Virus record (IMG/VR): IMGVR_UViG_3300027976_000007
Span: 78,111 to 142,110 of that record
DNA length: 64,000 nt
Origin: a virus
Strand: one strand, 5' to 3'
Numbering within the stretch: position 1 is the stretch's first letter; every line of letters begins with the position of its first letter. Made by a program: the position numbers and the translations under genes. Positions 9,927 through 60,143 of the stretch are shown here, piece after piece. The notes beneath the pieces were generated by a model. The model was not told where the DNA came from, ran no database searches, and worked only from the letters and a program-made list of their open reading frames with translations.

Positions 9927-9967
9927 GTTGAATTTTATTATAAATATGTAACTTTAAAAATTTATTA

Positions 9968-10672: not shown

Positions 10673-10690
10673 ATATTTTTTTTATATTAT

Positions 10691-13799: not shown

Positions 13800-14732
13800 T
13801 TAAATTTTAATACCAGCTAGTTTTTGGAATCTTGCAACCATAGGGTCAACCTCTATAATAGAAGTTTTAGATTCATTTAAATTGGCTAATGATTTTGAAG
13901 CAGAACCCATTTTGTTTTCTCTGATTGGAGCTTTTCCTCTAGGAGTTATGCTTTTTATCAAAGTCTCATATATGACTTTTGCTTCTGATGTTGTGGATGC
14001 CTTATCGAAAGATTCTAGAACTTGGATTTTTTGAGATTCTCTTAAATTGTTAACTTTAAAAATCTTATTTGTGTAAATAAGTTTAGCATTTAATAAATTA
14101 ATTTCATTAAGTTCATTTCTAAGAATTTTTACTGTTTTATAAGCTTCAAAAAGTTCTTTGTGATAATCAACTTCATCTTCTACTTCAGCTTCACCTTCAA
14201 CAGGGAAATCTGATTCGGATTCTAATTCACCATCTTGGTTCATTTCGTCTATAACGGAAGCTACAAAAGCTTTAAATTCTTCTTCAGTCATATCCCCTAC
14301 ATCGAAATCTTCTTCGTCTTCAGTTTCATCCTCCGTTTCTTTTTCTTCTTCTTCAGTTTCTTTTTCTTCTTCTTCAGTTTCTTCTTCTTCAGTTTCTTCT
14401 TCTTCAGTTTCTTCTTCAGTTATAGCTTCAGTTTCATCATCCATTTCTCTTTCGATTTCTGCTAGGATTTCGTCTAAGTTGAATTCCTCTTCTTCTTCTT
14501 CTGTAAAAGAGCTCTCTAAATCTTCTTCTTCTTCTTTCATTGTATCGTATTCTTCTTCTACATTTTCCTCCTCTTCTTCTTCTCCTAATTCGATTTCTTC
14601 TAACTTTGCAGCTAACATTGATTTCAAATGAGGGGTGAAGGCTTCTTCCAATGCTAGTTTAGCATTTTCAATAGCGGATTCTTTTATAGTCTTAGCATCA
14701 GCGATAGCATCTTCTAATATATTTCGTTTCAT
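13800..14732 (-). CDS. Prohead core / scaffolding protein
   Basis: Very acidic centre and coiled-coil ends. Lies between the protease and capsid genes. C-terminal RFQKLAGI. Confidence 0.85.
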   Translation of the reverse strand: MKRNILEDAIADAKTIKESAIENAKLALEEAFTPHLKSMLAAKLEEIELGEEEEEENVEEEYDTMKEEEEDLESSFTEEEEEEFNLDEILAEIEREMDDETEAITEEETEEEETEEEETEEEEKETEEEEKETEDETEDEEDFDVGDMTEEEFKAFVASVIDEMNQDGELESESDFPVEGEAEVEDEVDYHKELFEAYKTVKILRNELNEINLLNAKLIYTNKIFKVNNLRESQKIQVLESFDKASTTSEAKVIYETLIKSITPRGKAPIRENKMGSASKSLANLNESKTSIIEVDPMVARFQKLAGIKI

Positions 14733-14929: not shown

Positions 14930-15541
14930 TTAGTTTAAAGGACAAGATCCATTACCGCATAAAATATCTATGATTATAGAATTTATTACCCCATACTGGT
15001 TATAGTATTTAGATTCAGTAATGTTTTCTCTAAGAGGTTTCATAAAGGAGTTTGGATTGGATGGGGTGCTTACAAAATCCCAACATAACAATTCAAAATC
15101 ATCTTGAACCTCCATTATTCCACCTTCTTCTTTAAGAGATCCCATACCTCTAGAAGACACACCAACACGAATATTGTTTTCTATTAAAGCTTTTAAAATA
15201 TTACCTGATGGGGTAGGAAGGATTTCTATTTTCCCTATAATTTCATCCCCATCCCATCTATATTCTATAATATTATGTGATACGTTTTTTAAATTTACAG
15301 TTTGGGATTCTGGATGGTCTAGTTCTCCAGTTGCTCCATTACTTTTAATTAGTTCATCATACTTCTTCATTTCCCTAACCCAAAGCTCCCTGGAATAATA
15401 TCTACCGTTACCGTTTTTGATTTCCGCTGTGGCTAGTATCCCTTCAACTACAAGATTTCCCCTAGCTGATAGTTTACCCTCTGTAATGACAGGAGAGATT
15501 GTAGGTTTAAAGGTGGAAGTCTCTATTAATAGTTGTTTCAT
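14930..15541 (-). CDS. gp21: Prohead protease (gp21-like)
   Basis: NGNGRYY, GELDHP, TPSG, GVSSRGMGS, DFVSTPS. Confidence 0.97.
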   Translation of the reverse strand: MKQLLIETSTFKPTISPVITEGKLSARGNLVVEGILATAEIKNGNGRYYSRELWVREMKKYDELIKSNGATGELDHPESQTVNLKNVSHNIIEYRWDGDEIIGKIEILPTPSGNILKALIENNIRVGVSSRGMGSLKEEGGIMEVQDDFELLCWDFVSTPSNPNSFMKPLRENITESKYYNQYGVINSIIIDILCGNGSCPLN

Positions 15542-21657: not shown

Positions 21658-22575
21658 TTATAGAGAACCTTCTAACTTCTTCTTGGTTTTGGTTAGATCC
21701 TTTAGCTGGTTTAAGTATTTTTCTTTTTTATCCCCTTCAGAACTTTTATATAGTTTAGCTATTTTCTTCATTTTTTCTACCGCAGATTGGAGTTGTAAAG
21801 CGGTATTTGAAGTGGAATCCTTTTTGAAATCTTTCTTTGTTGGTTCTTTTTCGAATTCAGAAGAATCATCATCTTTATCTGCTTTATAATAGTTATCTTC
21901 TATTTCTTCACCCCCATCGTCTTGGTTTTTCTTTTTCCTACCTTCAAACCTCAAAGCTGTAGCTATTTTCCTCATTTTTTCTACCGCAGATTGGAGTTGT
22001 AAAGCGGTATTTGAAGTGGAATCCTTTTTGAAATCTTTCTTTGTTGGTTTTTTTTCGAATTCAGAAGAATCATCATCTTTATCTGCTTTATAATAGTTAT
22101 CTTCTATTTCTTCACCCCCATCGTCTTGGTTTTTCTTTTTCCTACCTTCAAACCTCAAAGCTGTACCGGCACCGGCACCCATATCTTGGAGCAATTTAAC
22201 AAGTTTGTCTAAGAAAGGTTTGGATTTTTTTCCTGCTCTTACTATAGCTTTTATTAATTCGTTCTCATCCGTTATCTCTGGACCGTGTGTTTCTTCAATG
22301 TTTATATCTTTGGTAATTTTTGAAGTTTTTTCAAGTTCCTTATTTAATTCTTTTTGGTTTATTACTTCTTCTTTGGTAGCTTCTTCTAAATCATATTTAC
22401 CTTCTCCAAATTTACCTTTTATCCTATTCATTATACCCTCTATAGCTGTAAAAGAATCATATGGGCTGTATCCATTACGTATAGCTATTTTTTGGATAAA
22501 TTTTATTACTATTTGTTCTAAAGAACCATTAATATTGGATTCTTTGATGGAAGATTTTTTGGAAAGATGTTTCAT
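21658..22575 (-). CDS. Charged hypothetical (probable internal) protein with a 68-aa duplication
   Basis: ORF with late motif at 22601-22610 and a duplicated segment. Confidence 0.7.
   Translation of the reverse strand: MKHLSKKSSIKESNINGSLEQIVIKFIQKIAIRNGYSPYDSFTAIEGIMNRIKGKFGEGKYDLEEATKEEVINQKELNKELEKTSKITKDINIEETHGPEITDENELIKAIVRAGKKSKPFLDKLVKLLQDMGAGAGTALRFEGRKKKNQDDGGEEIEDNYYKADKDDDSSEFEKKPTKKDFKKDSTSNTALQLQSAVEKMRKIATALRFEGRKKKNQDDGGEEIEDNYYKADKDDDSSEFEKEPTKKDFKKDSTSNTALQLQSAVEKMKKIAKLYKSSEGDKKEKYLNQLKDLTKTKKKLEGSL
21757..22164. repeat. 204-bp in-frame tandem duplication (2 copies, 2 differences seen)
   Basis: 21757-21960 versus 21961-22164. Confidence 0.95.
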
Positions 22576-22609
22576 AGTTTATTGTAAAAATTAAAGTTTA
22601 TTATAAATA

Positions 22610-23140
22610 TTACAGAGAGAGTGCATGTTTAATAGAAGATATTCTATCCTCCATACTTCCTTCTATCTTATAGAAGTTTTTGATTCGGTGTTTGTATATG
22701 TTGATTATCCTTTGGATGCTATGGTCTATTTCTTCCCTATATTCAGCATCAGTTTCCCTGACTCCATTATCTTCTATATTTACCCCTTCAGGTGAAACAT
22801 AAAATATATAATCATATTCAGATATGAGATTTTTAGCCATTATACAAAAATCGTCCTTATCATTTGGAGGGATTGATTTGGATAGAAGGGAAAATGCCAT
22901 TACATCTATAATAGTTCTATCGGTAATTATGTTTTCTTCAAGAAGTTCCCTTGACCTTTCTGCGGCAAATATTATTTGTCCTTTAAGGGTTGAGTCTGTA
23001 TTTAAGGGTATTCCTAAATCCCTTAAATATTTAGATCTTTCTGTTGTGAATTTATAATGAGAAAATTCTGGGAGTGATTTTAATTCATTCACCAATGAAG
23101 TTTTCCCTACAGAAACTGTTCCACAAAATCCTATTTTCAT
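22610..23140 (-). CDS. NadR-type (AAA_28) P-loop kinase
   Basis: GTVSVGKT Walker A, ERSK, TDRTIID, YDYIFY, EDNGVR. Confidence 0.8.
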   Translation of the reverse strand: MKIGFCGTVSVGKTSLVNELKSLPEFSHYKFTTERSKYLRDLGIPLNTDSTLKGQIIFAAERSRELLEENIITDRTIIDVMAFSLLSKSIPPNDKDDFCIMAKNLISEYDYIFYVSPEGVNIEDNGVRETDAEYREEIDHSIQRIINIYKHRIKNFYKIEGSMEDRISSIKHALSL

Positions 23141-23143
23141 TAT

Positions 23144-23368
23144 TTATACATTTTGACAATAAATGATAAAGTCATCTATTACTTCTTTACCATGAGAATT
23201 TAAACCTGTTTTATAGGATTCTAAGGTAAGTATAGAATTTTTAGACTCCAAAAGTAAAGGTTTAATATCTAACAGAATAGATTCGTTTATGGATAATTGG
23301 TCTAAAGTATCCCCTGAATATGATATGCTATCATTTATATAATCTTCTATATGATCCGAGTATTTCAT
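23144..23368 (-). CDS. Small hypothetical protein
   Basis: 74-aa ORF in the operon; INES and LLES motifs. Confidence 0.55.
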   Translation of the reverse strand: MKYSDHIEDYINDSISYSGDTLDQLSINESILLDIKPLLLESKNSILTLESYKTGLNSHGKEVIDDFIIYCQNV

Positions 23369-23822
23369 TTAATAAGGTAGTTAGTTTGATGAATGTTTCT
23401 TTTATTTGAGAATTAAGCCATTGGAGTCTTTCTCCCATCCTTTTCCCTTCCATAGGTTTCTCAATATTTTTTTCAGGGATGTATAAAGTTAGGGGTTTTA
23501 TATATTCACTCCCCACAAGAAATATAAATTTATCTTTTTTTAAATCTATACCTTTTTTTATCATTTGGGATGCTACTTTTTTACCCCACTTCTCTTTTTC
23601 TTCTTTAGACATATCCTTTAAAGTAAGATCATAAGGGCCTAATTTCATATCATATGGAACCAAATGATGTTTAGCAGATAATATAAACTTTTTATTAGGT
23701 TTCAAAGACTCACCATAAGCCAAAGTTTTTTGAAACATTGGGGATGGGGAATATAAATCTACAGCTTTAGATACTTTGTCTAGTTTAGATTTAGTACAAC
23801 TTAATAATACAATTCGGGCCAT
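23331..23822 (-). CDS. DUF6884 / YaaA-like fold protein
   Basis: IVLLSCTKSK...DLYS...ILSAKHHLV...PYDLTL...Y...GERLQWL. Carries a C-terminal IKLTTLLNE tail. Confidence 0.75.
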   Translation of the reverse strand: MARIVLLSCTKSKLDKVSKAVDLYSPSPMFQKTLAYGESLKPNKKFILSAKHHLVPYDMKLGPYDLTLKDMSKEEKEKWGKKVASQMIKKGIDLKKDKFIFLVGSEYIKPLTLYIPEKNIEKPMEGKRMGERLQWLNSQIKETFIKLTTLLNEILGSYRRLYK

Positions 23823-23842
23823 ATGTTTTTATTATAAATATA

Positions 23843-24046
23843 TTAAGATACTTTTTCAATCAAATTCATAAAAGTCTTCATAATTTGAACTTCATTTATG
23901 AATAACTCTACATTAATCCCTCTAACCCCAACACAAACTGTTGGGGTTTTGTTTGTAGTTAAATTTTTATTTAATCCACTTAGAAAAACCCCATAAAAGG
24001 GTTCTTCCTTTATTGACCGTTTACCAGCTTGAATTATTTCTTCCAA
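23843..24046 (-). pseudogene. Truncated remnant of a DUF2201-type (VWA-associated) metallopeptidase gene
   Basis: EPFYGVFLSGLNK....PTVCV...GINVELFIN resembles the family N-terminus but stops before any HExxH. It has only a TTG start. Confidence 0.5.
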
Positions 24047-24057
24047 ACCATATAGAT

Positions 24058-24321
24058 TTAGTTTCTGGTATCAGACAACTTGCCTTTCATAGATGAATTT
24101 TTGTAGTAAGGCAAACCCTCTCTTTGAGATCTTGCTTCTTTCCATTCATCTTTAGTTTTTTGAAGGCCATAGAGATAATATTCAGCTTTCTTGCTGTTTC
24201 CTTCAGGGGTCAAAGCGGGGCCATCCCATCTGTGAAGTTTTCCATCCCAGATATAAGCTATAGTCCCATCTGCTTTTCTTAATTTCCTACTTTGAGGGAA
24301 TGGTGTTCTTTCCTGTGTCAT
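24058..24321 (-). CDS. Small protein with an LHRxDGPA motif
   Basis: GKLHRWDGPA...EYYLYG. Start moved to ATG 24321 because the longer call overlaps the promoter at 24343-24374. Confidence 0.7.
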   Translation of the reverse strand: MTQERTPFPQSRKLRKADGTIAYIWDGKLHRWDGPALTPEGNSKKAEYYLYGLQKTKDEWKEARSQREGLPYYKNSSMKGKLSDTRN

Positions 24322-24342
24322 ATATACATTTTTGATTATACA

Positions 24343-24374
24343 TAAATATAACATCCTTTCCCCGGGAGGCCAAA
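24343..24374 (-). promoter_or_regulatory. Bacteroidota-type housekeeping-sigma promoter
   Basis: TTTG-N20-TATATTTA. Confidence 0.75.
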
Positions 24375-24390
24375 CAGGGGGGGAAATTTG

Positions 24391-25743
24391 TTATATATCC
24401 TTTAATATTGATTCGGCTGAGTAAATACCTTGGCTCCCACTAACCGTAATACCCCTAGCAGATAAAGCATCACCAACGAAATGAATATTAGGATATTTAG
24501 TTAAGGATAAATCTTTATAGCTGACCAAAGGTTCAGGAGAAAGATATTTGACCTCTGGCATGTATATCCCATAGTCATTCCCTAAGGTTGGGAATACTTC
24601 TTTCATATCTTCTATAAATCCCTCAATGTAAAGGGCATAGTCTCCTAAAGCATCATATAAAGGCTGGATTGAATTAACCACATTACATTTTAAATATTCC
24701 CCTTCTGAATTTTTGGAAGGTTGGCGGTTGTTGTTGGGGGAATAAAATGAACCCATTCCTTTATTTTGGAGAGTTTTTACAGCAGTTCTGGAATACTCAA
24801 AGGGGTTTTCTATGTTTTGAATTTCCATCAATATCCCAAAATTAGTCATATTATTACGATGAGCTTCATCTTTTTTGGCATGTCCATTATAAGAATGATC
24901 CCCGTATGTTTCTTCTATGGCTATATAAGCTGCGTTGTTGTTCGTACAAAAAGTTCTTAACGAAACTCCTTTATCTTCAAATTTTCTATATAATTTGAAA
25001 TCATAACTAATATCAATTAACTTTTGGAAATGATGTTGAGGTGCCTCAAAACGGATCCCTATTTGTACTGATTTAGGTTCAGTTGGTAGGTCGTATTTTT
25101 CTGCTAATTTTTTTCCAAAGTCTATGCCGGATTTACCTACACCAAATATAAGTGTATCGTATTTTAATATCACATTATTGGCCCATTTCATACCTTCGGG
25201 TAAGCTCTCACTATCCATTTTTGCTGTTTTAGGATAATATACTTTATTATTTTCAAAATCAATATCCGTTACTTTAGTCTCCCATTCAAAGTGGACACCT
25301 TTTCCAACTAAATAATCATACCAGTTCTTTGCAATTTCAGATAAGTAATCTGTCCCTATATGCCAAACAGGAAATAACCTTAAACCAAAATAAGGTTTAA
25401 TGAAATCAGGTTCTGTTTCTGGGTTTGAACAATGGACTTCTTTAGGGTTAGGGTGGAATCGTTTGAAATTATTTATCACCTGATCCATCAATTCCATTGC
25501 TTTTTCTTCACCACAATATTTAGATAGTTGACCTCCTATTGAAGTATGATAAGTTAATTTACCATCACTCCAACCTCCAGCTCCTAACATACCTTCCATT
25601 ACCTCACTAGGTAACCTATCATATGGGCCTTTACCCATATCTATTATGGTTATTAGTTCCCCCGGGTAACCATTATCTATTAATTTAGTGGCAGCATTGA
25701 TTCCTGAGACTCCGGCTCCTACAATTACTATTTTTTTATCCAT
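24391..25743 (-). CDS. FAD-dependent oxidoreductase (COG2509-like)
   Basis: IVGAGVSG Rossmann motif, GAGGWSDGKL, RTFCTN, NGH, TNFGIL, PEVKY, FVGD...RGI. Confidence 0.9.
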   Translation of the reverse strand: MDKKIVIVGAGVSGINAATKLIDNGYPGELITIIDMGKGPYDRLPSEVMEGMLGAGGWSDGKLTYHTSIGGQLSKYCGEEKAMELMDQVINNFKRFHPNPKEVHCSNPETEPDFIKPYFGLRLFPVWHIGTDYLSEIAKNWYDYLVGKGVHFEWETKVTDIDFENNKVYYPKTAKMDSESLPEGMKWANNVILKYDTLIFGVGKSGIDFGKKLAEKYDLPTEPKSVQIGIRFEAPQHHFQKLIDISYDFKLYRKFEDKGVSLRTFCTNNNAAYIAIEETYGDHSYNGHAKKDEAHRNNMTNFGILMEIQNIENPFEYSRTAVKTLQNKGMGSFYSPNNNRQPSKNSEGEYLKCNVVNSIQPLYDALGDYALYIEGFIEDMKEVFPTLGNDYGIYMPEVKYLSPEPLVSYKDLSLTKYPNIHFVGDALSARGITVSGSQGIYSAESILKDI

Positions 25744-25763
25744 TATTTATTATTTATTATTTA

Positions 25764-25795
25764 TTAATATACGAAAAAAAAATGTGGTCTCCAAA
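25764..25795 (-). promoter_or_regulatory. Bacteroidota-type promoter
   Basis: TTTG-N20-TATATTAA upstream of the oxidoreductase. Confidence 0.65.
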
Positions 25796-25805
25796 TTCTG
25801 ATTTT

Positions 25806-26723
25806 TTATTTTATTATATCTGATATTATGTCTTGTAATATAGTATGAACTTCTTTACCTTTGATTAATGATTTAATTGTATATAATCCCCCTTTAATAT
25901 AACTAGCACTTTTAATATATTTTATTCCATCTCCCCCGGCTTGTCCTGCCATCAATAATATTACAATGGCATATAAAACATCAGATATATTTTTTTTATA
26001 TTTTTCATTCTTAGTAAACAAACCAACTACTTTTTTTATTGGGGCCTTAAAGGCTTGTTCATTCTTATGAGTGAAATGTTCTATTTTTTTAGCGGCCTCT
26101 TCCCCCTTTCCAAAATTATGTTTAGCAAATTGGTTTTTAGCAAACTTAGACAGCATATGGGCTACCGTGTTAGATAGAAGAATATAACCTAAAATTCCTA
26201 TTAAAGATTCATTAAGATCTTTTTTACCTTCTAATTCTTTTTTGATAGCATCCGCTAATTCATCTCCTAAGTCAGCAAATTCATCTCCTAAGTCAGCAAA
26301 TTCATTTTCTCTTTCGAATTGTAGGGGTTGAATTCCATTTATGTTCGAAGGGGTGTGTTTCATATTTTTAACACTTAGGGAACCCCCCTCAAGGTTAGAA
26401 AACATTTCATGTAAACATTTTTTAATTTTATTTTTTTCAAAATCTTTATATGAAGATAAATTTAAATCTCTATTTTCTAAAACTTTTTTATTTTTCCCTC
26501 CTACATCAAGTAAACCTCTAGAATATAAATATCGTGCTTCATCTATCATTTTTAGATACTCATATTTAGACATATGACCTTTATATGAGGTTAACGGTAA
26601 ATTAGCGCCTATATAACGCTTAAGTGTAGGGGTCAATATTATGGGTGAAATCAGATTTTCATTTAAAGAAATCGCATACTTTTTAATGGAGCAGGGACCA
26701 CATTTATGATTATTATTGCACAT
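25806..26723 (-). CDS. Hypothetical modular protein with hydrophobic C-terminal helices (possible internal/ejected protein)
   Basis: LNE sites, hydrophobic segments LIGILGYILLS and VLYAIVILLMAG, and a 21-bp tandem duplication at 26257-26298. Confidence 0.6.
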   Translation of the reverse strand: MCNNNHKCGPCSIKKYAISLNENLISPIILTPTLKRYIGANLPLTSYKGHMSKYEYLKMIDEARYLYSRGLLDVGGKNKKVLENRDLNLSSYKDFEKNKIKKCLHEMFSNLEGGSLSVKNMKHTPSNINGIQPLQFERENEFADLGDEFADLGDELADAIKKELEGKKDLNESLIGILGYILLSNTVAHMLSKFAKNQFAKHNFGKGEEAAKKIEHFTHKNEQAFKAPIKKVVGLFTKNEKYKKNISDVLYAIVILLMAGQAGGDGIKYIKSASYIKGGLYTIKSLIKGKEVHTILQDIISDIIK

Positions 26724-26724
26724 A

Positions 26725-27822
26725 TTATTTCATTATTTCTTTATAGGTCAATTCTATCTTATTTCCTGATAAATCTCCTTTAGGGTACACCTGCTTTTTA
26801 GGAACTACTGTAGCTCTTAAACCTCCAGTAATATTCCTTGTAGAATCATGTCTTATATTTAATAATGGTTCCAAATCATACTCTTCTATATCTACCATAT
26901 TTTCTAACACTTTGGAAACCTCAACATATATTGTATCTCCTTTTAGGGTGAAATCTTGAGGTGAATAGGTTTTATATATAACTACAGAATTATCTGACCC
27001 GAATATTATTAATTCTTCTTCAGATTCAGGTAAATCCAATACTATTACTCCTGAAACTTTGCTTTTTGTTTCTTTATTATACATAGTATATATTCCTTTC
27101 TTTTTATTCCCTAACTTATCTAGGAAAGGTTTGAAAGTTAATTGTGGGGCAAATCCTCCATTTTGGATTTTGGTGAATAATGCATTTACTAATTCTCTAT
27201 ATCTAGAGTCTGAACTTTCCCAGAAACCTGCATTGTCTTTTTTTATTGATATAGGATAATCTTTTTTACCTTTTAATATTATATCTGCTTTTTTACCTCC
27301 TTGAGTATCATAACCCACACTTTCTACTTTATTGATATTTTTAACAGTATAAGTTTTATTTTCCCCTTTAAATTTTATAGTTTTAGGACCATCCTCTAAA
27401 TATTTATTTAATTCATCTACTATGATGTCTTCATTTCCTGTACCCGCAGAAGATCTGCCTTGAGAGTTATCAGGTTTAACTACAAAAGTAACGGTTTTAT
27501 ATTTTATGGCTCCTGTTGAAGATCCTGGGGCGTTAGGGTCAAAGTTAAAATCTTTTAATTTAGAGATTTTTTCAATATAATCAAACCTTTCGGTTCTGGG
27601 AACTAATATTTTATATTTCTTAGAAGAAATTTTAGCGAAATTTTCATCCCCAAACCCAATTTTTGATTTTAGAATTTGTATAGCATTATACATATCATCT
27701 TCTTTTAACATACCTTCTATTAATGAATTAAATAAGTTAATGTCTTCAGGGGATGAGGGGTCTAAATATCCTTTGGGGAATTTATAACCGTACTTTCGTA
27801 TTAGTTTTTCTATTATTTCCAT
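26725..27822 (-). CDS. Restriction-endonuclease-like PD-(D/E)XK fold protein
   Basis: G..NE...KADIIL......ISIKK pattern. Confidence 0.5.
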   Translation of the reverse strand: MEIIEKLIRKYGYKFPKGYLDPSSPEDINLFNSLIEGMLKEDDMYNAIQILKSKIGFGDENFAKISSKKYKILVPRTERFDYIEKISKLKDFNFDPNAPGSSTGAIKYKTVTFVVKPDNSQGRSSAGTGNEDIIVDELNKYLEDGPKTIKFKGENKTYTVKNINKVESVGYDTQGGKKADIILKGKKDYPISIKKDNAGFWESSDSRYRELVNALFTKIQNGGFAPQLTFKPFLDKLGNKKKGIYTMYNKETKSKVSGVIVLDLPESEEELIIFGSDNSVVIYKTYSPQDFTLKGDTIYVEVSKVLENMVDIEEYDLEPLLNIRHDSTRNITGGLRATVVPKKQVYPKGDLSGNKIELTYKEIMK

Positions 27823-28661
27823 TAAAACCGCATTCCATCAATAATATTTTCTATTTGATCTTTTAGATCTTCCATATAAGAAATTATATCTGATTTTTGA
27901 TCTCCAGCCAAAGCATAGGCGCCTCTTCTGGCGTTTTTGATTTCGTAATCTAACTTAGCTACGGAAGATGTAAAACCCAATAATCCCAAATCTTCAAAAT
28001 ATTCTTCTTTCCAACCATCATTTGAATATGATTCCTCTTCAAAGTTATCATCAGGTCCTTGTCCTTTATAGACTTCTAATATTAGTTTTTTTAGTTTAGA
28101 TTTTTTCATTTTTGTTTCTTGTATTTCTTCGGGTTCAATATCAAAGTTATCATCAGGTCCTTGTCCCTTATAGACTTCTAATATTAGTTTTTTTAGTTTA
28201 GATTTTTTCATTTTTGTTTCTTGTATTTCTTCGGGTTCAATATCATCGATTTCTACATCTTCTGTTTCTTCAGGTTCATCTAAAGGTTCAGTTTCTTCTT
28301 TTGCCCCATATCTTAATATTCGGGAGATGGCTTCTACCGCTCTATGCTCCTCTGGTAGATTTAATAAATAATATTTTTTACCTTCTATTTGAGCTATCCA
28401 ACTTCTACCATTATATACTAAGTAAAAACTTTGATCGTTTTTTAGATTAATTCTAAATGTAGTAGGTTTTGGAGAAACCCAGTCTATAGAATCTAGAAAG
28501 CTATTAAAATCTAAAGATAACAAATCTACAATTATCTTTTTTAATTCTGGGAATTTAGTTATTTCATCATATTCTATAGAACTGTCATCTACCTTTTTTA
28601 TATCTTTTAAGATAGTAGGGATTATAGATTTGACTTTAGATTTTAATTCTTCCTTGTTCAT
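27822..28661 (-). CDS. Hypothetical protein with a duplicated internal MKKSKLKKLILE module
   Basis: ORF track; 34-aa duplication. Confidence 0.7.
   Translation of the reverse strand: MNKEELKSKVKSIIPTILKDIKKVDDSSIEYDEITKFPELKKIIVDLLSLDFNSFLDSIDWVSPKPTTFRINLKNDQSFYLVYNGRSWIAQIEGKKYYLLNLPEEHRAVEAISRILRYGAKEETEPLDEPEETEDVEIDDIEPEEIQETKMKKSKLKKLILEVYKGQGPDDNFDIEPEEIQETKMKKSKLKKLILEVYKGQGPDDNFEEESYSNDGWKEEYFEDLGLLGFTSSVAKLDYEIKNARRGAYALAGDQKSDIISYMEDLKDQIENIIDGMRF
28039..28242. repeat. 102-bp in-frame tandem duplication (2 copies, 1 difference seen)
   Basis: 28039-28140 versus 28141-28242. Confidence 0.95.
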
Positions 28662-28662
28662 T

Positions 28663-28869
28663 TTATTGTAATAAATCGGTTAGAGACCCTATTAGGAGAT
28701 CTATTTGATTATTTATTTTAGGAGTAGAAAATTTTTCAGATTTGAAGTTTTGTAACCTTATAATCGTTCTATTTACTTCCTCCTTCATTTCCTTTTTAGG
28801 GGAGTCTCTTTTTTCATGTTGGGGGTTCAGAGATTCTCTAATTATATTTTTTAATTCGGATTTTTTTAT
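28663..28869 (-). CDS. 68-aa protein with an ATA start (KKSELKNIIRES...), missed by the ORF track
   Basis: Open frame fills the gap exactly. ATA overlaps the upstream TAA. The N-terminus matches neighbouring MKKxELKxxIxE proteins. Confidence 0.6.
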   Translation of the reverse strand: MKKSELKNIIRESLNPQHEKRDSPKKEMKEEVNRTIIRLQNFKSEKFSTPKINNQIDLLIGSLTDLLQ

Positions 28870-29021
28870 TTGTGGTTTCTTTTAAAATCAGCAGATAGTT
28901 GCTTTATTTTAGTAGCAGCAGCTCTACACCTTTGTTTTGCAACCGCTGTTGATTTTTCTATTTCTGTTTCTATTAATATGATTTGTTCTTTAATTCCTTC
29001 TAATAATTCTTTAGTTTCCAT
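28866..29021 (-). CDS. Histone H1-like (Hc1-family) small DNA-binding protein, missed by the ORF track
   Basis: METKELLEGIKEQIILIETEIEKSTAVAKQRCRAAATKIKQLSADFKRNHK resembles the helical-hairpin AxxRxRxA...KxL..F[KR] pattern of Bacteroidota Hc1-like proteins. Confidence 0.65.
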   Translation of the reverse strand: METKELLEGIKEQIILIETEIEKSTAVAKQRCRAAATKIKQLSADFKRNHK

Positions 29022-29046
29022 AATTGTTTTTTATTTTTATAATTGT

Positions 29047-29625
29047 TTATTTTATTATTCCTGCTATTACTTGCATTCTTCTTTTGAAGTCAGATTCTTG
29101 CAGTCTTTCGGATTCGGTGATTTCTCTATTTCTTCTCCTTTCCCTCTCTTTAGCAAAGTCTTCATTTGGATATTCTGTATTTATAAAGGGGGTTGATTTA
29201 TTTAATTCATTATCATAAGGGGTATCATCTATATTCAAATTGTCTCTAGGAGATCCTACTTCTTTTACAACATGCTGTCTGGTGAAAAAGGTTAATGAGT
29301 TACCTATTTGTTTAGTTAACTTGTCATCTCCTAATTGCCTAGCTCCTTCTAAAGCGGCTTCTAGATTGTTTTGTATATCACCTGATATTCCAGAAAGTTC
29401 TGTTTCCGCATCTTGGTATATGTGCATTTTGTCACCCCCTCCTTCTAAATCGTAAAAATTCTCTAAATCTTCGATTTCTTCATCATCCTTGATTTCTTCA
29501 TCTTCAACTTCTTCTTCCTCTTCCTCTTTATCCTTTTTCTTAGTTTCCATAAGTTTAGAATAAAAAGCTTCCTTAAGGTATGGGGGTTTAACTGGTAATT
29601 TTTTTACTGTTTTTTTCATTTTCAA
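29047..29625 (-). CDS. Acidic hypothetical protein with a scaffold-like C-terminus
   Basis: Ends RRMQVIAGIIK. Late motif at 29635-29644. True start is probably ATG 29619. Confidence 0.7.
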   Translation of the reverse strand: MKMKKTVKKLPVKPPYLKEAFYSKLMETKKKDKEEEEEEVEDEEIKDDEEIEDLENFYDLEGGGDKMHIYQDAETELSGISGDIQNNLEAALEGARQLGDDKLTKQIGNSLTFFTRQHVVKEVGSPRDNLNIDDTPYDNELNKSTPFINTEYPNEDFAKERERRRNREITESERLQESDFKRRMQVIAGIIK

Positions 29626-29656
29626 TTTCGTTTATTATAAATATTAAATCCTACGT

Positions 29657-29956
29657 TTAAGATACATCCATCTCATCTTCATCGGCTTCAAACCCTTTAG
29701 ATCTTAAAGAATTTATAATTTCTTCAGAGTTGTATTTGTCCCCTACTCCCCCTTCAACCTCAATCCCTATCCTTTTTAGGAAAGCATTCGTTTCGTCTTT
29801 GTTTAAAGTTTTTCTTTCTCCGTTTTTTAGGTAAAAGTATGCTTTATAAAAACGTGACCCTGGATAAGTATAAGATATCAAGATTCTTTTGATTTTTATA
29901 GCATCCCTTAGAGATAATTCTTCCTTTATTAATTTTTTTAGTTCAAATTTTTTCAT
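29657..29956 (-). CDS. Small probable internal protein
   Basis: N-terminus MKKFELKKLIKEE. Confidence 0.65.
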   Translation of the reverse strand: MKKFELKKLIKEELSLRDAIKIKRILISYTYPGSRFYKAYFYLKNGERKTLNKDETNAFLKRIGIEVEGGVGDKYNSEEIINSLRSKGFEADEDEMDVS

Positions 29957-30513
29957 TTTTTTAATTTTTCTAAGTTTTCTATAGTTTTGTTAAGACTATC
30001 TAATATTTTTTCTTTATCTACCCCACCAATCCAATTTTCTAAATCTCCATTTTCGGAGATGAAGGAATTGGAAGTTTCATTTATTTGTTCTAAAACCCAA
30101 TTTTTATATCCTTTAATAAAACCTTCTAAATCAGCATTATGGATATTTTTTTCATATTGAACATATAGACCTGCCTTTTTTAAGTCATGTTCAAAATCAA
30201 TAACACAGTCAAAACACATTTTATGTACTTTATAATAATCAGGGTCGAACCTCTTTTTCATCAGGTTAGTACAGTTAGGGCAAAATAAAGGTGGAATATT
30301 TAAGGCCCTTGCCTTATCTAATTTAGTTATGTTTTGTTTTATTCCTTCTTTTATAGTCCATTTCCTTCCATCTTCTTCCCAAATGTCTCCTTCAGAATAG
30401 AATTCTTTTGGTTTACTGTATCCTGAACTTGATCCTGTTTTCTCTTCAGATTTACCTTGGATGAGATTTCTCATCCTTTGAACTTCCTTTTTATTAAATT
30501 CTTTTTTTAACAT
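29953..30513 (-). CDS. Zinc-finger hypothetical protein
   Basis: CPNC...CFDC and EGDIWEEDGRKW. Confidence 0.7.
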   Translation of the reverse strand: MLKKEFNKKEVQRMRNLIQGKSEEKTGSSSGYSKPKEFYSEGDIWEEDGRKWTIKEGIKQNITKLDKARALNIPPLFCPNCTNLMKKRFDPDYYKVHKMCFDCVIDFEHDLKKAGLYVQYEKNIHNADLEGFIKGYKNWVLEQINETSNSFISENGDLENWIGGVDKEKILDSLNKTIENLEKLKK

Positions 30514-32729
30514 TATAATCCTAATTCTTTTAATTCCTTAATAGTTTGGGTCGTTGATTTAAATAATATACCAATACCCCCGGCCTTATTCCAATTTATT
30601 ATGGTTTCCTCCCTATCATCGATTAATATATCATTGGAGGTTAATTTAGGTTTTATTAAATGTTTTTCCTTAGCAGGTTTCATATTCATTTTAGGTTTTG
30701 AAGGGAAAAGACCTTTGTTAACCCATATATCTAACCAAGCTTTTTTACCTTCTACTGATTGTTCTTTGATAGAAGGAGCAGTAAGAAGTTCATAATTATA
30801 TTTAGATACAAACTTAATTAATTTTTTAGCTTCAGGCAGGGGAGGAATTCCTTTCCAGAACACCATTTTATTAGGACCTTCATCTATAAAATCCCAAAAA
30901 GCTTTAACCCCAAATTCATCTCTATAATCCCCAGGACTTATACCTTGAGATAATTCAGTAAATCTTCCATCAAAATCTGCTATTACCCCATCCATATCAA
31001 CATATATCATAGGGTTATCCAATTTAAAAGATTCAAATAAAGGCAAAGATAAAGATTTAGATCTAGTTCTCCATTTGGAAAGTATTTTATCCTTTTGCAA
31101 AGAAGTGAGTTCTTGGTCTTCTAGATAAGCATCAATAACATCCTTCATTGGTTTTTTTGATTTTTTAGCTTGAGTATACATCCCATATAACATAGCATCT
31201 ATCTCTGTAGGTAAAGTGAAATATTTCCAATATGGATTTTTTCCTGTTTCTATTTTATCTCTAAGATCATTGTCTTTGTCTAAGTCAAAATCTTTGGATG
31301 GGGTTTTATTAAGACCATCCTGAGTAAGATGTTCTATTTCATGTCTAAGTATGTCAGAGACTGCATAGGATACTTTTTCCCATATTTGGGGGAAATCTTC
31401 TTTGGGGACTTTAAAAATAAGTTGGATTTTGGCAGGTTTTGAAGCAAATGATCCACCTTCATCATAAAATTCATATGATTTAGTATTTAGGGATGCTTCT
31501 AGATTGAATTTTAACCCTGATTCTTCAACTTTAAATTTTAGTTTAGAAAGTTGATTACCTTCTTCAACATCATACTTCCAACCTTTAATTACCTGGTTAG
31601 TAAGTTTGGTTACTAGACTATCATATTTACCTTCCTTTAAGTTTATTACTTCGTGGAAAAAAGATATTGCTTTTTCATTCAAACCAAATATGTCTTTTGA
31701 TTCCTTTACATCCCAATTCTTATTAACGGTTTCTAAATCTCCTTTTTCCGTTTGAGATAACAGTTCATCATAGGAAATAGATTCATTTAAACTATCAGTC
31801 CAATTTCTAAAATTCATATTTCCATTTAAATATGCTTCTTTTTCTAATTCCACTAAACCCTCATCTTCGTTAGTGTTGGTTGTTTGTATATTACCTAATC
31901 GGTTTTCTAAATCTTGCAAATAATGAATAATCTCATGGGAATAAGATCTAATTAAATCTTTAGGATGTCTTCCTTCAGTATATAAAACTATAGTTTGATT
32001 TGTAGGATCATAATAAGCAGTTTTTCCAAAGAAATCTTTTGCGTTTTTTACATCTCCATGTTTGAATATAACTTTAGGGAGGGTTTTGATTTCTGGATGT
32101 TTATTTAAGAACCATTTAGTGAGGGATTTTATTTGGGATTTATAGTCTATCTCTTTAGAGTAAGTAGCATCCTCGTTTAGTTCCTCTAGGGTTTTGTTAT
32201 CTAGAATATTAAATATTTCTTCCTTTTCATTCTCAGATAATTCGCTAGGTAAATATTTTGAAAATTCTTCAATACCTTGTTTTAATGCCTTTCTAGCATT
32301 TGATCCGCTCATACTTCCATCTGGGGTTGATATTATCTTGAGAACCATATTAGGGTATTTTGAATCTATATTTTTGGTTCTCTGTTTAATATCCAATTCG
32401 TCATCTTCCCTACCCTCTCTACTCCCTATAACAAAATATATTAGGCCTTGGGGGTTGTTTTTTGCTAGTCTTAATATTTCCCCTATAGGGGCATGGGCGG
32501 GGATAAGTTTTACTTTAGAAGGGAGATATTTTAAATATATTTCCCATATTTTTATAGATAATTCTTGAGATATACCACCCCTTTCTCCACCCCCAACATA
32601 AATTATAAACTCACCAACGTTTGGGAGTGCTTCTAATGCTTTTTTAACTACAGAAAGATGGCCTGCGGTTGGAGGTTTGAAGGACCCTCCAAAAACTGCT
32701 GTAGGGTTCTTTTGAGTTGGTGAAGTCAT
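30513..32729 (-). CDS. Four-domain protein: HxGH-class nucleotidyltransferase, two HExxH metallopeptidase-like domains and a HAD 5'-nucleotidase (NT5C-like)
   Basis: FGGSFKPPTAGH...MSGSNAR; SHEIIHYLQ..EKEAY; RHEIEHLTQ..EIDA; YVDMDGVIADF...LTAP...GK..W...LIDD. Confidence 0.85.
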   Translation of the reverse strand: MTSPTQKNPTAVFGGSFKPPTAGHLSVVKKALEALPNVGEFIIYVGGGERGGISQELSIKIWEIYLKYLPSKVKLIPAHAPIGEILRLAKNNPQGLIYFVIGSREGREDDELDIKQRTKNIDSKYPNMVLKIISTPDGSMSGSNARKALKQGIEEFSKYLPSELSENEKEEIFNILDNKTLEELNEDATYSKEIDYKSQIKSLTKWFLNKHPEIKTLPKVIFKHGDVKNAKDFFGKTAYYDPTNQTIVLYTEGRHPKDLIRSYSHEIIHYLQDLENRLGNIQTTNTNEDEGLVELEKEAYLNGNMNFRNWTDSLNESISYDELLSQTEKGDLETVNKNWDVKESKDIFGLNEKAISFFHEVINLKEGKYDSLVTKLTNQVIKGWKYDVEEGNQLSKLKFKVEESGLKFNLEASLNTKSYEFYDEGGSFASKPAKIQLIFKVPKEDFPQIWEKVSYAVSDILRHEIEHLTQDGLNKTPSKDFDLDKDNDLRDKIETGKNPYWKYFTLPTEIDAMLYGMYTQAKKSKKPMKDVIDAYLEDQELTSLQKDKILSKWRTRSKSLSLPLFESFKLDNPMIYVDMDGVIADFDGRFTELSQGISPGDYRDEFGVKAFWDFIDEGPNKMVFWKGIPPLPEAKKLIKFVSKYNYELLTAPSIKEQSVEGKKAWLDIWVNKGLFPSKPKMNMKPAKEKHLIKPKLTSNDILIDDREETIINWNKAGGIGILFKSTTQTIKELKELGL

Positions 32730-33523
32730 TTTAAAAATTGGTTTATTTTAGATTGGGCTTCTTCTTTTGATACGGAAGAAGCAATTATATTTTGAGTTTT
32801 GTCTGATTGAAGAAATGATTGGAGATCTTTATTCAGTTTTTCTTTATTCTTTTCGTCTCTTAACTTTTCTTTATCTGTTTTATCCCTCCCATCTCGGGGA
32901 ATGAAGGGGTATATATAATTTTTTAAAATATCTTCTACAGACTTCATAGTTTCTTTTTTTCCTAAATTGGAAACAGACACAAAATTGGAGAATGATTTTT
33001 TATATATAGGAAAGTTTTCTGAAACTTTTAACCATGTTTGGAGGATTGAGGAGGGAACTAAACTCCTATCTTTTCCTTTACTTTTTTCAAATCGATTTTG
33101 GTTTCTCTTTAGGGATGTTTCTAGGTCTGTATAGACATATAACATCATAACATCATATCCGGATTCTTGAAGTTTATTTTTTAATTCTAATGTTGGTTCT
33201 GATGATGAAGAGGTTCCGTCTAATATGAAAGACTCCTTGTTTGCTATTATTTTAGGCAATTGTTCTTGTTTGAGTTTTTTTGAAGCATTTTGCATGGCTT
33301 TCATAAATTTACTCCTATCTTTAGCACTGGTATCTTTTTGATTGAGTGAAAAATTTTCTATTTTGGATAAAGCTAAAATATTATCATCAACATTTAGTAT
33401 AGTTAATCCTTTTAAATCCAAATCTTGTAAAATAGAACCTTTTCCTGAACCTGGAGCCCCCGCAAGAATGAGGGCTTTAGGATTGGAAAGGGATTCTTTT
33501 AAAAGCTGAATTAACGATATCAT
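32726..33523 (-). CDS. Zeta-toxin / AAA_33-like P-loop kinase
   Basis: LAGAPGSGKG, NVDD, FILDGT, GYDVMMLYVYT....SLKRNQNR. N-terminal MISLIQLLKES. Confidence 0.8.
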   Translation of the reverse strand: MISLIQLLKESLSNPKALILAGAPGSGKGSILQDLDLKGLTILNVDDNILALSKIENFSLNQKDTSAKDRSKFMKAMQNASKKLKQEQLPKIIANKESFILDGTSSSSEPTLELKNKLQESGYDVMMLYVYTDLETSLKRNQNRFEKSKGKDRSLVPSSILQTWLKVSENFPIYKKSFSNFVSVSNLGKKETMKSVEDILKNYIYPFIPRDGRDKTDKEKLRDEKNKEKLNKDLQSFLQSDKTQNIIASSVSKEEAQSKINQFLK

Positions 33524-33575
33524 TGTTTATGGTTTTTGTTATAAATATATTAAACAAATTGAGGATATATTAAAT

Positions 33576-48063: not shown

Positions 48064-48471
48064 TTATTTTAAAACGATATTAAATGAATCTTTTACATCC
48101 AACCTAGAGATTTGGTAATCTAATCTAAATTCAATTGTATTAAAATTTGGGGAATTATTAAATGCTATTTTTTCTATTATAACGTCGGGGAAATATCTCC
48201 TTATATCTTCTTGAATTCTTTCCTTTAATTCGTCTGTAGTATAATCTGTTATGTTTTCAAACAGTAAAGTTTTTAAATCAGAACCAAAATTAGGGTTAAA
48301 TACTCTTTCTCTTTTATTAGTTAATAAGTAATTAATCAAATTAGCTTTGGTTTGGTCCTTGGTTTGGTAAGTAGTATTAAAAACGGCATTCCCGTTTAAA
48401 GGGAAGCCAAAACCTATCCCTTTATGTAGAAAAGTATCTATTGGATATTTATTAGGTAAAAGCTGAGCCAT
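48064..48471 (-). CDS. gp25: Baseplate wedge protein (gp25 / W-like)
   Basis: NLINYLLTNKRERVFNPNFGSDL..LLFE. Confidence 0.93.
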   Translation of the reverse strand: MAQLLPNKYPIDTFLHKGIGFGFPLNGNAVFNTTYQTKDQTKANLINYLLTNKRERVFNPNFGSDLKTLLFENITDYTTDELKERIQEDIRRYFPDVIIEKIAFNNSPNFNTIEFRLDYQISRLDVKDSFNIVLK

Positions 48472-48788
48472 TATTTCCCAATAAGTTGTTTAATTACATC
48501 CATACTTACCTCGCCTGAAGGTAAAGTCCCATTTATTATATCCATCCCTCCTAAGGGAGAGAATTGTGGAAGATCCTTAGTAGTTAAAGATATTTCTGTT
48601 TGATCTATCATATCTAGATATAATTTTCTCTTTTCAGATTCAGTTAAGGTTGATTTGCTGATTTCTTTTTTTTCATTAATAGGGGCCTTTCCTTGGGATA
48701 AGGCCTCAATAAGGAAAGTTTTAATTTCCTCTTGAAAAGCTTCTTTAACCGCTTCTTTAATTATTTTTTTAAAAGTTTTTGTTTTCAT
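48471..48788 (-). CDS. Small probable virion protein
   Basis: MKTKTFKKIIKEAVKE start, INE and LTE sites, late motif at 48792-48801. Confidence 0.65.
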   Translation of the reverse strand: MKTKTFKKIIKEAVKEAFQEEIKTFLIEALSQGKAPINEKKEISKSTLTESEKRKLYLDMIDQTEISLTTKDLPQFSPLGGMDIINGTLPSGEVSMDVIKQLIGK

Positions 48789-59903: not shown

Positions 59904-60143
59904 TTAAAATATTTTAATTATTTGGTTTTCCTTAGTAAGGATGTTAATTTTAAAGTAATTATCCAAGGATTGTATAAAATTAACCATATGGCCCCTCTGA
60001 TTCAAAAACTCTATTATAAATGAAAACTTATCCCCTTCCAACTCCCCACCTTCACTTATAAAAAGATTCCAAACCAAATTATTAAAATCTAAACAAAATC
60101 TCATTTGTATATAATTATCTCTTGACGTTTTTAATTCCTTCAT
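59904..60143 (-). CDS. Hypothetical protein
   Basis: Coupled to the pnk gene (ATGA overlap). Confidence 0.6.
   Translation of the reverse strand: MKELKTSRDNYIQMRFCLDFNNLVWNLFISEGGELEGDKFSFIIEFLNQRGHMVNFIQSLDNYFKINILTKENQIIKIF

What the first reader, a model, noticed from the sequence alone, without database searches (positions are those of the whole stretch)
21658..33548. Candidate capsid-cargo system: a shared targeting/cleavage tag on a block of late-expressed enzymes
Seen: unrelated proteins share an amphipathic motif, roughly L-x-x-(L/I)-(L/I)-x-E. It is N-terminal in the major capsid (MSKLQSLLES), the zeta-like kinase (MISLIQLLKES), 29956 (MKKFELKKLIKEE), 28869 (KKSELKNIIRES) and 48788 (MKTKTFKKIIKEA). 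It is internal in 28661 (MKKSKLKKLILEV, twice) and 17242 (HIKLINLIKEQ), and C-terminal in the DUF6884 protein (FIKLTTLLNEI). Many of these genes sit behind the late motif (33539, 29635, 23832, 22601, 48792), although several encode enzymes. Known: T4 internal proteins carry a short capsid-targeting sequence removed by gp21, which cuts after Glu in (I/L)-x-E, and a gp21 homologue is at 14930..15541. Inference: this phage tags a kinase, a nucleotidyltransferase, peptidases, a nucleotidase, a nuclease-like protein and a DUF6884 protein for packaging and injection with the DNA, using a portable tag that works at either end or inside a protein.
Basis: partly seen in the sequence, partly recalled or inferred. 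Interest (0 to 1): 0.85.

Follow-up and report, generated by a model that had tools for sequence, protein, structure and literature searches.

The report
Head-loading leader peptides on phage cargo

Summary
The quoted strings are in the sequence, and part of the pattern is real. A portable N-terminal leader exists: hydrophobic residues at positions 4, 7 and 8 and Glu at 10 (kinase, MISLIQLLKE), or the same core shifted by two (Glu12; the 99-aa protein at 29657-29956). Conservation is at the protein level. It sits beside the head genes and has the register of T4's gp24 propeptide (MAKINELLRE) and of the IPIII capsid-targeting sequence. An S77 prohead protease, a Gp23-family capsid protein and a scaffold candidate lie nearby.

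The sweeping inference fails. The "internal, twice" case is a 102-bp tandem duplication inside a gene fusion. ORF 28869 has no canonical start codon. The motif is not enriched at C-termini. The oxidoreductase, AAA_28 kinase, PD-(D/E)XK nuclease and DUF6884 protein have no portable N-terminal leader. The nucleotidyltransferase polyprotein is tagged in 17 of 22 relatives but not in this genome.

A second address motif, RMQxLAGI, copies the scaffold's C-terminus and does occur at either end of proteins.

Packaging and cleavage are inferred, not shown. The scan has noted similar leader systems before, elsewhere in this genome and on other phage DNA. Verdict: new variant of a known kind.

The parts
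32726..33523 (-). Zeta-toxin/adenylate-kinase-like P-loop kinase (265 aa) with a class-B leader MISLIQLLKE (codons at 33494-33523), followed by SLSNP and strand beta-1.
   Evidence: Pfam Zeta_toxin 2.5e-17. The leader is conserved in 71 of 76 orthologues. Leaderless distant homologues exist. The model has pLDDT 93 overall but 69 for residues 1-10.
29657..29956 (-). 99-aa protein with the Glu12 form of the leader, MKKFELKKLIKE (29921-29956).
   Evidence: The body homologue in cultured phage immuto begins MKKSQLREIIRKE.
27822..28661 (-). 279-aa fusion protein: a conserved N-domain (aa 1-123), an acidic linker, then two copies of a leader-bearing unit (MKKSKLKKLILE at 28176-28211 and 28074-28109) and a C-terminal body.
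   Evidence: 102-bp tandem repeat at 28039-28245. In relatives the N-domain is a separate protein of about 150 aa, followed by a separate gene that starts MKKFQLKELIKEE.
28663..28869 (-). 68-codon open frame beginning ATA (I)KKSELKNIIRES, with no canonical start codon. The ATA overlaps the TAA stop of the upstream 51-aa ORF.
   Evidence: A similar leader, MKRSELRKIIREE, heads a 103-aa protein in relative L053.
29047..29625 (-). 192-aa acidic protein ending RMQVIAGIIK (29050-29079), a copy of the scaffold's C-terminal motif. It sits behind the late motif.
   Evidence: Homologous bodies in relatives carry class-A or class-C leaders at the N-terminus.
30513..32729 (-). 738-aa multi-domain protein: HxGH nucleotidyltransferase, two HExxH motifs (aa 265 and 463) and an NT5C-type nucleotidase. 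It has no leader in this genome.
   Evidence: Pfam and PHROG, motifs. Seventeen of 22 relatives have a 13-17-aa leader, such as MSKLSDFLVESILNE, before the HxGH strand.
25806..26723 (-). 305-aa Cys-rich protein, leaderless in this genome. Relatives carry MNRLRKLIIEAL or MERLRQLIKEAL leaders in front of the Cys motif.
14930..15541 (-). S77 prohead protease (gp21 homologue). Its N-terminus MKQLLIET resembles T4 gp21's MNEPQLLIET.
   Evidence: Pfam PF03420 3e-27, T4 sequence, relatives.
13800..14732 (-). Scaffold candidate (310 aa) in the position of T4 gene 22. Its C-terminus is RFQKLAGIKI (13803-13832) and its N-terminus is MKRNILED.
   Evidence: Gene order. The C-terminal R[WFM]QKLAGI is conserved in three relatives. 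There is no family hit, so the identity rests on position and composition.
12139..13767 (-). Gp23-family major capsid protein. It has the N-terminal leader MSKLQSLLE (13741-13767) and a likely maturation site LVVE60|NSTTGGG (13588-13596).
   Evidence: Pfam Gp23 7e-73, alignment to T4 gp23, relatives.
48471..48788 (-). 105-aa protein with the Glu12-type N-terminus MKTKTFKKIIKE, encoded in the baseplate module. Whether it is head cargo is uncertain.
   Evidence: The N-terminus is conserved in three relatives, always next to gp25-like and gp6-like genes.
23331..23822 (-). DUF6884 protein. The C-terminal FIKLTTLLNE (23364-23393) was considered as a tag and is not supported.
   Evidence: Pfam. No C-terminal enrichment. 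The family is absent from five relatives. The one homologue has a similar but shifted element.
33540..33547 (+). One example of the late-gene motif (TATAAATA on the + strand, TATTTATA on the gene strand), 24 nt upstream of the kinase start. Others lie at 29636, 23833, 22602 and 48793.
   Evidence: A similar element lies upstream of kinase genes in relatives.

Best explanation
The stretch from about 33523 down to 25806 (minus strand), between the tail-fibre/neck genes and the terminase, is this clade's variable block of candidate head-cargo genes. Some of its proteins begin with a T4-type propeptide. This is a short amphipathic helix with hydrophobic residues at positions 4, 7 and 8 and Glu at 10 (kinase, MISLIQLLKE|S), or the same core two residues later (Glu12; MKKFELKKLIKE|E). 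The capsid protein, the scaffold candidate and the protease have N-termini of the same kind. By analogy with T4, the leader docks the protein onto the scaffold core while the prohead forms. The S77 protease (14930-15541) then cuts after the Glu, and the mature protein stays in the head and enters the host with the DNA. Shown here: the leader is real, portable, conserved at the protein level, added on to the kinase fold, confined to genes beside the head module, and found together with an S77 protease. Inferred only: docking, cleavage, retention in the head and injection. Among the recognisable enzymes of this genome, only the kinase carries the leader. A second address element, R-[MFW]-Q-x-L-A-G-I, is the scaffold's conserved C-terminus. 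It recurs at the C-terminus of ORF 29047-29625 and, in relatives, at N-termini followed by I-T-E.
For: An S77 protease, a Gp23 capsid protein, portal and TerL are present. By family, the motif is enriched at N-termini: 16 families against 1-7 in later windows and against 2.7 in N-terminal shuffles. Glu falls at position 10 in 9 families and at position 12 in 5. The same body carries different leader classes in different phages (families 20, 36 and 48). Leu positions use both TTR and CTN codons, Ser uses both AGY and TCN, and the upstream DNA differs between genes. The kinase core occurs without a leader, with the class-B leader in a fixed register, or with other leaders. Leaders are on 0 of 371 conserved structural ORFs, on 71 of 76 kinases and on 83 of 427 downstream ORFs. 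In the wide scan, 134 of 150 matches are true ORF starts heading 66 body families. Of those 120 loci, 102 hold homologues of this phage, chiefly the block genes, TerL, portal and S77. S77 is present in 7 of 9 large leader-bearing contigs, including all 4 that are at least 90% complete. T4 gp24 begins MAKINELLRE, gp21 begins MNEPQLLIET and IPII begins MKTYQEFIAE. In the T4 targeting sequence, residues 4 and 7 govern targeting and residues 8 and 10 govern processing (PMC9026906).
Against: No proteomic or biochemical data exist for this phage or any relative, so cleavage, packaging and injection are all inferred. Short amphipathic helices ending in Glu are common, and (L/I)-x-E occurs near the N-terminus of about 60 of the 175 proteins, including TerL and replication proteins. 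The kinase's residues 8-15 align with the N-terminus of adenylate kinase 1, so only about seven residues lie clearly outside a kinase fold. ORF 48788 has the leader but sits in the baseplate module. The S77 linkage test had no negative control set.
Confidence: 0.6

Rival explanations
1. The leader marks prohead-core assembly components rather than delivered effectors. The tagged proteins join the scaffold core, are cut by the protease and are mostly expelled before DNA packaging, so nothing functional is injected.
For: In T4 the core proteins gp22, gp67 and gp68 are cut into fragments and mostly leave the head (PMC9026906). Many tagged proteins are small, acidic and without known domains. One tagged protein shares a 46-residue segment with the 565-aa protein encoded between portal and protease.
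Against: An intact, highly conserved P-loop kinase is tagged in 71 of 76 relatives, and an enzyme polyprotein is tagged in 17 of 22. Neither is expected for disposable scaffolding. T4 Alt and the internal proteins show that tagged proteins can be retained and injected.
Confidence: 0.17
2. The leader is an address or recognition peptide for some other partner, not the capsid. Candidates are the phage's own GroEL/GroES-like chaperonin, a modifying enzyme, or a multi-enzyme complex.
For: The genome encodes GroEL-like and GroES-like proteins (C1:34616-36581; N-termini read, identified from my own knowledge only). The T4 gp23 N-terminus targets fusion proteins to GroEL (PMC3012670). An earlier scan note on another phage found that a shared leader was better explained as an enzyme recognition site.
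Against: The leader has the register of the T4 gp24 propeptide and of the IPIII targeting sequence. It ends in the S77 cleavage motif, is shared with the capsid, scaffold and protease N-termini, and its genes cluster beside the head-module genes.
Confidence: 0.13
3. The shared motif is a by-product of composition. An AT-rich genome has a proteome rich in K, I, L, E and N, so amphipathic L-x-x-L-L-x-E helices recur by chance, or through codon or translation-start constraints.
For: K, I, L and E are four of the five commonest residues. The reversed motif is also mildly enriched overall (14 against 8.9).
Against: Positional enrichment by family, a fixed Glu register, leader swapping on homologous bodies, abundant synonymous codon variation, and 134 of 150 pattern matches being true ORF starts.
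Confidence: 0.05

Closest known systems
[quoted passage not shown]
   Same: A 10-residue N-terminal leader with hydrophobic residues at 4, 7 and 8 and Glu at 10. It is placed on unrelated, fast-evolving proteins, and a gp21-type S77 protease is encoded in the same genome.
   Different: The sequence differs (MIKLxDLLKE). There are several interchangeable leader classes and far more body families, which include recognisable enzymes. Nothing has been tested experimentally.
Phage T4 vertex protein gp24 propeptide (MAKINELLRE|S)
   Same: Nearly the same register as the class-B leader: K3, I/L4, an acidic residue at 6, L7, L8, a basic residue at 9 and E10. This phage's capsid protein starts MSKLQSLLE|S.
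   Different: In T4 this peptide sits on a capsid-shell protein, whereas here the same type heads many non-structural proteins.
Phage T4 Alt, an ADP-ribosyltransferase packaged in the head and injected
   Same: A precedent for an enzyme that carries short gp21-cleaved propeptides and is delivered with the DNA. Alt is processed at both ends (PMC9026906).
   Different: The enzyme here is a P-loop kinase of unknown substrate, and it has no homology to Alt.
Propeptide-bearing ejection and inner-body proteins of giant phages (phiKZ, 201phi2-1, SPN3US)
   Same: Many head-internal proteins are processed after Glu by a gp21-related protease (PMC9026906).
   Different: Their cleavage motif is S/A-x-E, and no short shared N-terminal address peptide of this kind is described in the review read here.
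Polyvalent proteins of phages and conjugative elements (Iyer et al. 2017, PMC5512222)
   Same: Multi-domain enzyme chains with HExxH peptidase-like modules, encoded next to virion genes and predicted to be packaged. The 738-aa protein has this look, and the kinase domain also occurs inside proteins of 1300-3700 aa.
   Different: The HExxH segments have no profile support as zincins here, and this genome's copy has no leader.
Encapsulin cargo-loading peptides; scaffold C-terminal coat-binding domains such as that of P22 (from my own knowledge)
   Same: A short peptide at either end of a cargo protein addresses it to the inside of an HK97-fold shell. The RMQxLAGI motif copies the scaffold's C-terminus and occurs at N- or C-termini.
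   Different: This is an analogy only. There is no sequence relationship and binding has not been tested.

Membership tests
T4-type gp21-processed head proteins / capsid-targeting sequence system | The genome encodes an S77 (gp21-type) prohead serine protease next to the scaffold and a Gp23-family capsid gene. | tested here: met
   PF03420 3e-27 at 14930-15541 and PF07068 7e-73 at 12139-13767.
T4-type gp21-processed head proteins / capsid-targeting sequence system | An N-terminal leader of about 7-12 residues ending in (L/I)-x-E, with hydrophobic residues at the T4 targeting positions 4 and 7 and processing positions 8 and 10. | tested here: met
   Kinase MISLIQLLKE. Glu is at position 10 in 9 families. 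T4 positions are taken from PMC9026906.
T4-type gp21-processed head proteins / capsid-targeting sequence system | The same leader sits on otherwise unrelated proteins (portability). | tested here: met
   Sixteen families in 80 loci and 66 families in the wide scan. Leaders are swapped on homologous bodies.
T4-type gp21-processed head proteins / capsid-targeting sequence system | The leader is removed by the prohead protease in the assembled head. | not testable with these tools
   This needs virion mass spectrometry or an in-vitro protease assay.
T4-type gp21-processed head proteins / capsid-targeting sequence system | The tagged protein is present in the virion and delivered to the host, and the leader is sufficient to encapsidate a reporter. 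| not testable with these tools
   No proteome or fusion experiment is available.
Zeta/PezT toxin kinases (UDP-GlcNAc kinases of toxin-antitoxin pairs) | Zeta_toxin P-loop kinase fold. | tested here: met
   PF06414 2.5e-17. Foldseek top hits are PezT and zeta, but polynucleotide kinase aligns better (target-normalised TM 0.71, rmsd 3.5) and adenylate/UMP-CMP kinases also align.
Zeta/PezT toxin kinases (UDP-GlcNAc kinases of toxin-antitoxin pairs) | An adjacent cognate antitoxin gene (epsilon/PezA type). | tested here: not met
   The neighbours are a PD-(D/E)XK exonuclease and the nucleotidyltransferase polyprotein, conserved in relatives. No small antitoxin-like gene is present.
Polyvalent proteins (Iyer et al. 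2017) | Several effector domains in one chain together with a zincin-like metallopeptidase domain. | tested here: inconclusive
   The 738-aa protein has nucleotidyltransferase and NT5C domains and two HExxH motifs, but no profile or PDB match supports a zincin fold.

The most novel reading that the evidence does not exclude
A large clade of uncultured marine T4-like phages uses a small set of interchangeable address peptides, one of which copies the scaffold's own C-terminal motif, to load dozens of unrelated proteins into the capsid. These would include a near-universal P-loop kinase and, in most members, a nucleotidyltransferase/HExxH/nucleotidase polyprotein. That would amount to a programmable, encapsulin-like cargo code for a tailed-phage head that delivers enzymes with the DNA.
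Probability: 0.4. Interest if true: 0.8.

Novelty: new variant of a known kind. Interest (0 to 1): 0.6.

Why it matters
T4's capsid-targeting sequence is known from a handful of internal proteins in one model phage. If these leaders work the same way, abundant marine phages of Flavobacteria would carry a much larger and rapidly exchanged set of injected proteins, enzymes included. Those proteins could then be predicted from sequence alone. That would give a way to find early host-takeover and anti-defence effectors in metagenomes. It would also supply natural address peptides for loading foreign proteins into phage heads. In addition, it suggests that cargo can be addressed by copying the scaffold's C-terminal motif. 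The cultured phage immuto carries the same leader classes, so the idea can be tested directly.

Tried and rejected
- **Single-protein locus search:** a search with the kinase alone found one distant locus, so an alignment was needed.
- **Family searches on cargo:** Pfam and PHROGs on ten leader-bearing proteins from relatives, and on the small proteins of the block, named almost nothing.
- **DUF7438:** the weak hit on ORF 27822-28661 (E 0.0015, below the cut-off) was not pursued.
- **(L/I)-x-E site density:** per protein it is only mildly raised in the 287-aa protein, the protease and the 565-aa protein (z 2-3), and it does not discriminate cargo.
- **Bare (L/I)-x-E near the N-terminus:** it occurs in about 60 of 175 proteins, including TerL, so it is useless alone as a criterion.
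- **Nucleotide-level explanation:** rejected because of the synonymous codon variety.
- **Zeta toxin-antitoxin reading of the kinase:** rejected, because there is no antitoxin neighbour.
- **HIKLINLIKEQ in the 565-aa protein:** it could not be shown to be conserved in orthologues and is left open.
- **Literature:** searches found no description of such leaders outside T4 and the giant phages.
Full report
**What the window is.** The 64-kb window is the right-hand part of a 142-kb viral contig. GC is about 31% and all long ORFs are on the minus strand. It encodes a T4-type head module:
- TerL at 20071-21648 and portal at 18138-20042 (PHROGs).
- An S77 prohead protease at 14930-15541 and a Gp23-family capsid protein at 12139-13767 (Pfam).
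- Between protease and capsid gene, a 310-aa helical, charged protein in the position of T4 gene 22. I take this to be the scaffold on position alone.

The nearest cultured relative is Flavobacterium phage immuto, with 51% capsid identity.

The flagged block, 33523 down to 21658, lies just upstream of TerL. Its genes are:
- a zeta-toxin/adenylate-kinase-like P-loop kinase;
- a 738-aa protein with an HxGH nucleotidyltransferase, two HExxH motifs and an NT5C nucleotidase;
- several small proteins without known families;
- a pyridine-nucleotide oxidoreductase;
- a DUF6884 protein;
- an AAA_28 kinase.

**Checking the observation.** Every quoted peptide is present, but four details change the count.
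- The '28869' peptide lies in a 68-codon open frame with no ATG, GTG or TTG. Its first codon, ATA, overlaps the TAA stop of the 51-aa ORF upstream.
- The 'twice' in ORF 27822-28661 is one 102-bp tandem duplication.
- The capsid protein and ORF 48788 fit the stated consensus only loosely.
- The 'late motif' is TATTTATA on the gene strand. It precedes 21 genes, including tail tube, sheath, the kinase, 29047-29625, DUF6884, 21658-22575 and 48471-48788, so co-expression with structural genes is plausible.

Statistically, the strict motif is enriched in the whole proteome: 21 observed against 8.7 expected. The enrichment is stronger in the first 15 residues: 4 against 0.31. The reversed motif is not found at N-termini at all.

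**Evidence from relatives.** I fetched 80 loci around kinase homologues. I called 1034 ORFs and, together with this genome's ORFs, grouped them into 321 body families using residues 26 onward.
- Sixteen families have the motif starting at residues 2-8. Each later 7-residue window has 1-7 families (1-4 from residue 23 onward), and the reversed motif gives 0-3.
- Shuffling only residues 2-16 gives 2.7 +/- 1.4 families.
- Glu falls at position 10 in nine families and at position 12 in five.
- The commonest form, M-I-[KS]-L-x-x-[LI]-L-x-E, heads the kinase and many unrelated bodies.
- Homologous bodies carry different leaders in different phages. One family begins MIKLTDILSEAELNKCP, MKLLDILNEVELNECP or MKNFDLKEYLKDTKKCP.
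- Conservation is at the protein level. Leu positions use both TTR and CTN codons, Ser uses both AGY and TCN, and the upstream DNA differs between genes.
- Leaders are absent from all 371 conserved structural ORFs upstream of the kinase. They are present on 71 of 76 kinases and on 83 of 427 downstream ORFs, in 20 of 92 families.

A back-translated pattern for M-I-K-L-x-D-[LI]-L-x-E was scanned over the viral contig collection.
- 134 of the matches are true ORF starts, heading 66 body families.
- 102 of the loci contain homologues of this phage's proteins, chiefly the block genes, TerL, portal and S77.
- S77 is present in 7 of 9 large leader-bearing contigs, including all four that are at least 90% complete.

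**The kinase.** Its N-terminus is conserved in close homologues. Among relatives below 50% identity, four forms occur:
- some start directly at strand beta-1, for example MKKALILAGSPGSGKS;
- many have the class-B leader with the P-loop at exactly residue 22;
- others have ENWRKYLxE-type leaders;
- one has two leaders in series.

The leader is therefore a module added to the kinase fold. The AlphaFold model is confident (pLDDT 93) except for residues 1-10 (pLDDT 69). These form a short helix joined by a loop to beta-1. Foldseek places the protein among PezT/zeta toxins, polynucleotide kinases and adenylate/UMP-CMP kinases, so the substrate is open. There is no antitoxin-like neighbour.

- **738-aa polyprotein.** It is leaderless in this genome and in five relatives, but 17 of 22 relatives have a 13-17-residue leader such as MSKLSDFLVESILNE.
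- **Cys-rich protein 25806-26723.** It is likewise leaderless here and tagged in relatives.
- **Oxidoreductase, AAA_28 kinase, PD-(D/E)XK nuclease and the 186-aa zinc-ribbon-like protein.** None carries a portable leader in any homologue.
- **DUF6884.** It is missing from five related records. The motif shows no C-terminal enrichment overall. The single homologue has a similar but shifted C-terminal element. This case is inconclusive.
- **Internal copies in ORF 27822-28661.** They correspond to the N-terminus of a separate downstream gene in relatives, fused in frame here and then duplicated.
- **ORF 48471-48788.** It keeps its leader-like N-terminus in three relatives but always lies in the baseplate module.

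**A second motif.** The scaffold candidate ends RFQKLAGIKI, and three relatives end R[WM]QKLAGI. The same eight-residue element occurs in 19 proteins of the data set: 13 near the N-terminus, typically FRRMQQLAGIITE with an I-T-E site, 4 at the C-terminus and 2 internal. In this window it ends ORF 29047-29625.

Elsewhere in the genome, four adjacent proteins share M[DN]NFDLKKYL[VA]EG[KR]LLKE and nothing else. The body of one of them carries the RMQKLAGLITE leader in a relative.

**Comparison with what is known.** In T4, gp21 cuts after L/I-X-E, and the first ten residues of IPIII suffice for encapsidation. Residues 4 and 7 matter for targeting and residues 8 and 10 for processing. Alt is an injected enzyme with cleaved termini (PMC9026906; PMC3012670). 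T4 sequences read with the tools show gp24 MAKINELLRE|S, gp21 MNEPQLLIET and IPII MKTYQEFIAE. The class-B leader matches the gp24 propeptide almost position for position, and this phage's protease begins MKQLLIET.

By alignment to T4 gp23, the capsid maturation site falls at about LVVE60|NSTTGGG, so the capsid's own leader would leave with the propeptide.

The 738-aa protein resembles the polyvalent proteins of Iyer et al. (PMC5512222), without profile support for its HExxH segments. The kinase domain also matches a 'minor head protein' PHROG and occurs inside very large proteins.

**Verdict.** A T4-like, clip-off, head-addressing leader on a kinase and several small proteins is the best reading (confidence about 0.6). 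Its function is inferred from sequence logic only. The claims about the other enzymes, and about one tag acting at any position, do not hold. Cultured phage immuto has the same leader classes on adjacent genes, which makes a direct test possible.

Earlier notes of this scan reached similar readings elsewhere in this genome and on other phage DNA. I used one as a lead and checked it myself. I do not count any of them as evidence.

Noticed in passing
window 28863-28871: The 51-aa ORF's TAA stop and the next frame's first codon ATA overlap as ATAA, the geometry of an ATGA stop-start overlap with G changed to A. The downstream 68-codon frame is open and protein-like but has no canonical start. It may be translated by re-initiation at ATA, or it may be a decaying gene.
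   Followed up: partly
genome C1:3270-5662 and 8859-10861 (outside the window): About ten tandem paralogues begin MMTIAEQLKITEFPF, with IAE and ITE sites near the N-terminus. The whole proteins are homologous, so this is a paralogue family rather than a portable tag. They inflate naive counts of (L/I)-x-E at N-termini.
   Followed up: no
genome C1:34616-36581 (outside the window): The phage appears to encode its own GroEL-like (550 aa) and GroES-like (100 aa) proteins. I judged this from the N-terminal sequences only.
   Followed up: no
L085 (Pelagibacter phage HTVC008M, KC465899.1 106562-111718): The gene set kinase, HxGH nucleotidyltransferase protein and NT5C-like HAD protein is also present in this T4-like pelagiphage. 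The kinase there begins MIPFILKEGLYDPGIFKA.
   Followed up: partly
window 60140-61611: A separate small P-loop kinase (137 aa, MKKVILTIGIPGSGKT) overlaps the start of a 353-aa protein. This could be a polynucleotide kinase and RNA ligase pair, but I did not examine it.
   Followed up: no
L213 (immuto MW353176.1 100792-101229): The gene annotated 'NAD synthetase' in immuto is homologous by its N-terminus to window ORF 35334-35774, a conserved structural-module protein. The deposited name looks doubtful.
   Followed up: no
window 21658-22575: A 305-aa protein with no family hit sits behind the late motif immediately upstream of TerL, and no homologue was found in the fetched loci. It could be a small terminase subunit or a strain-specific gene.
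   Followed up: no
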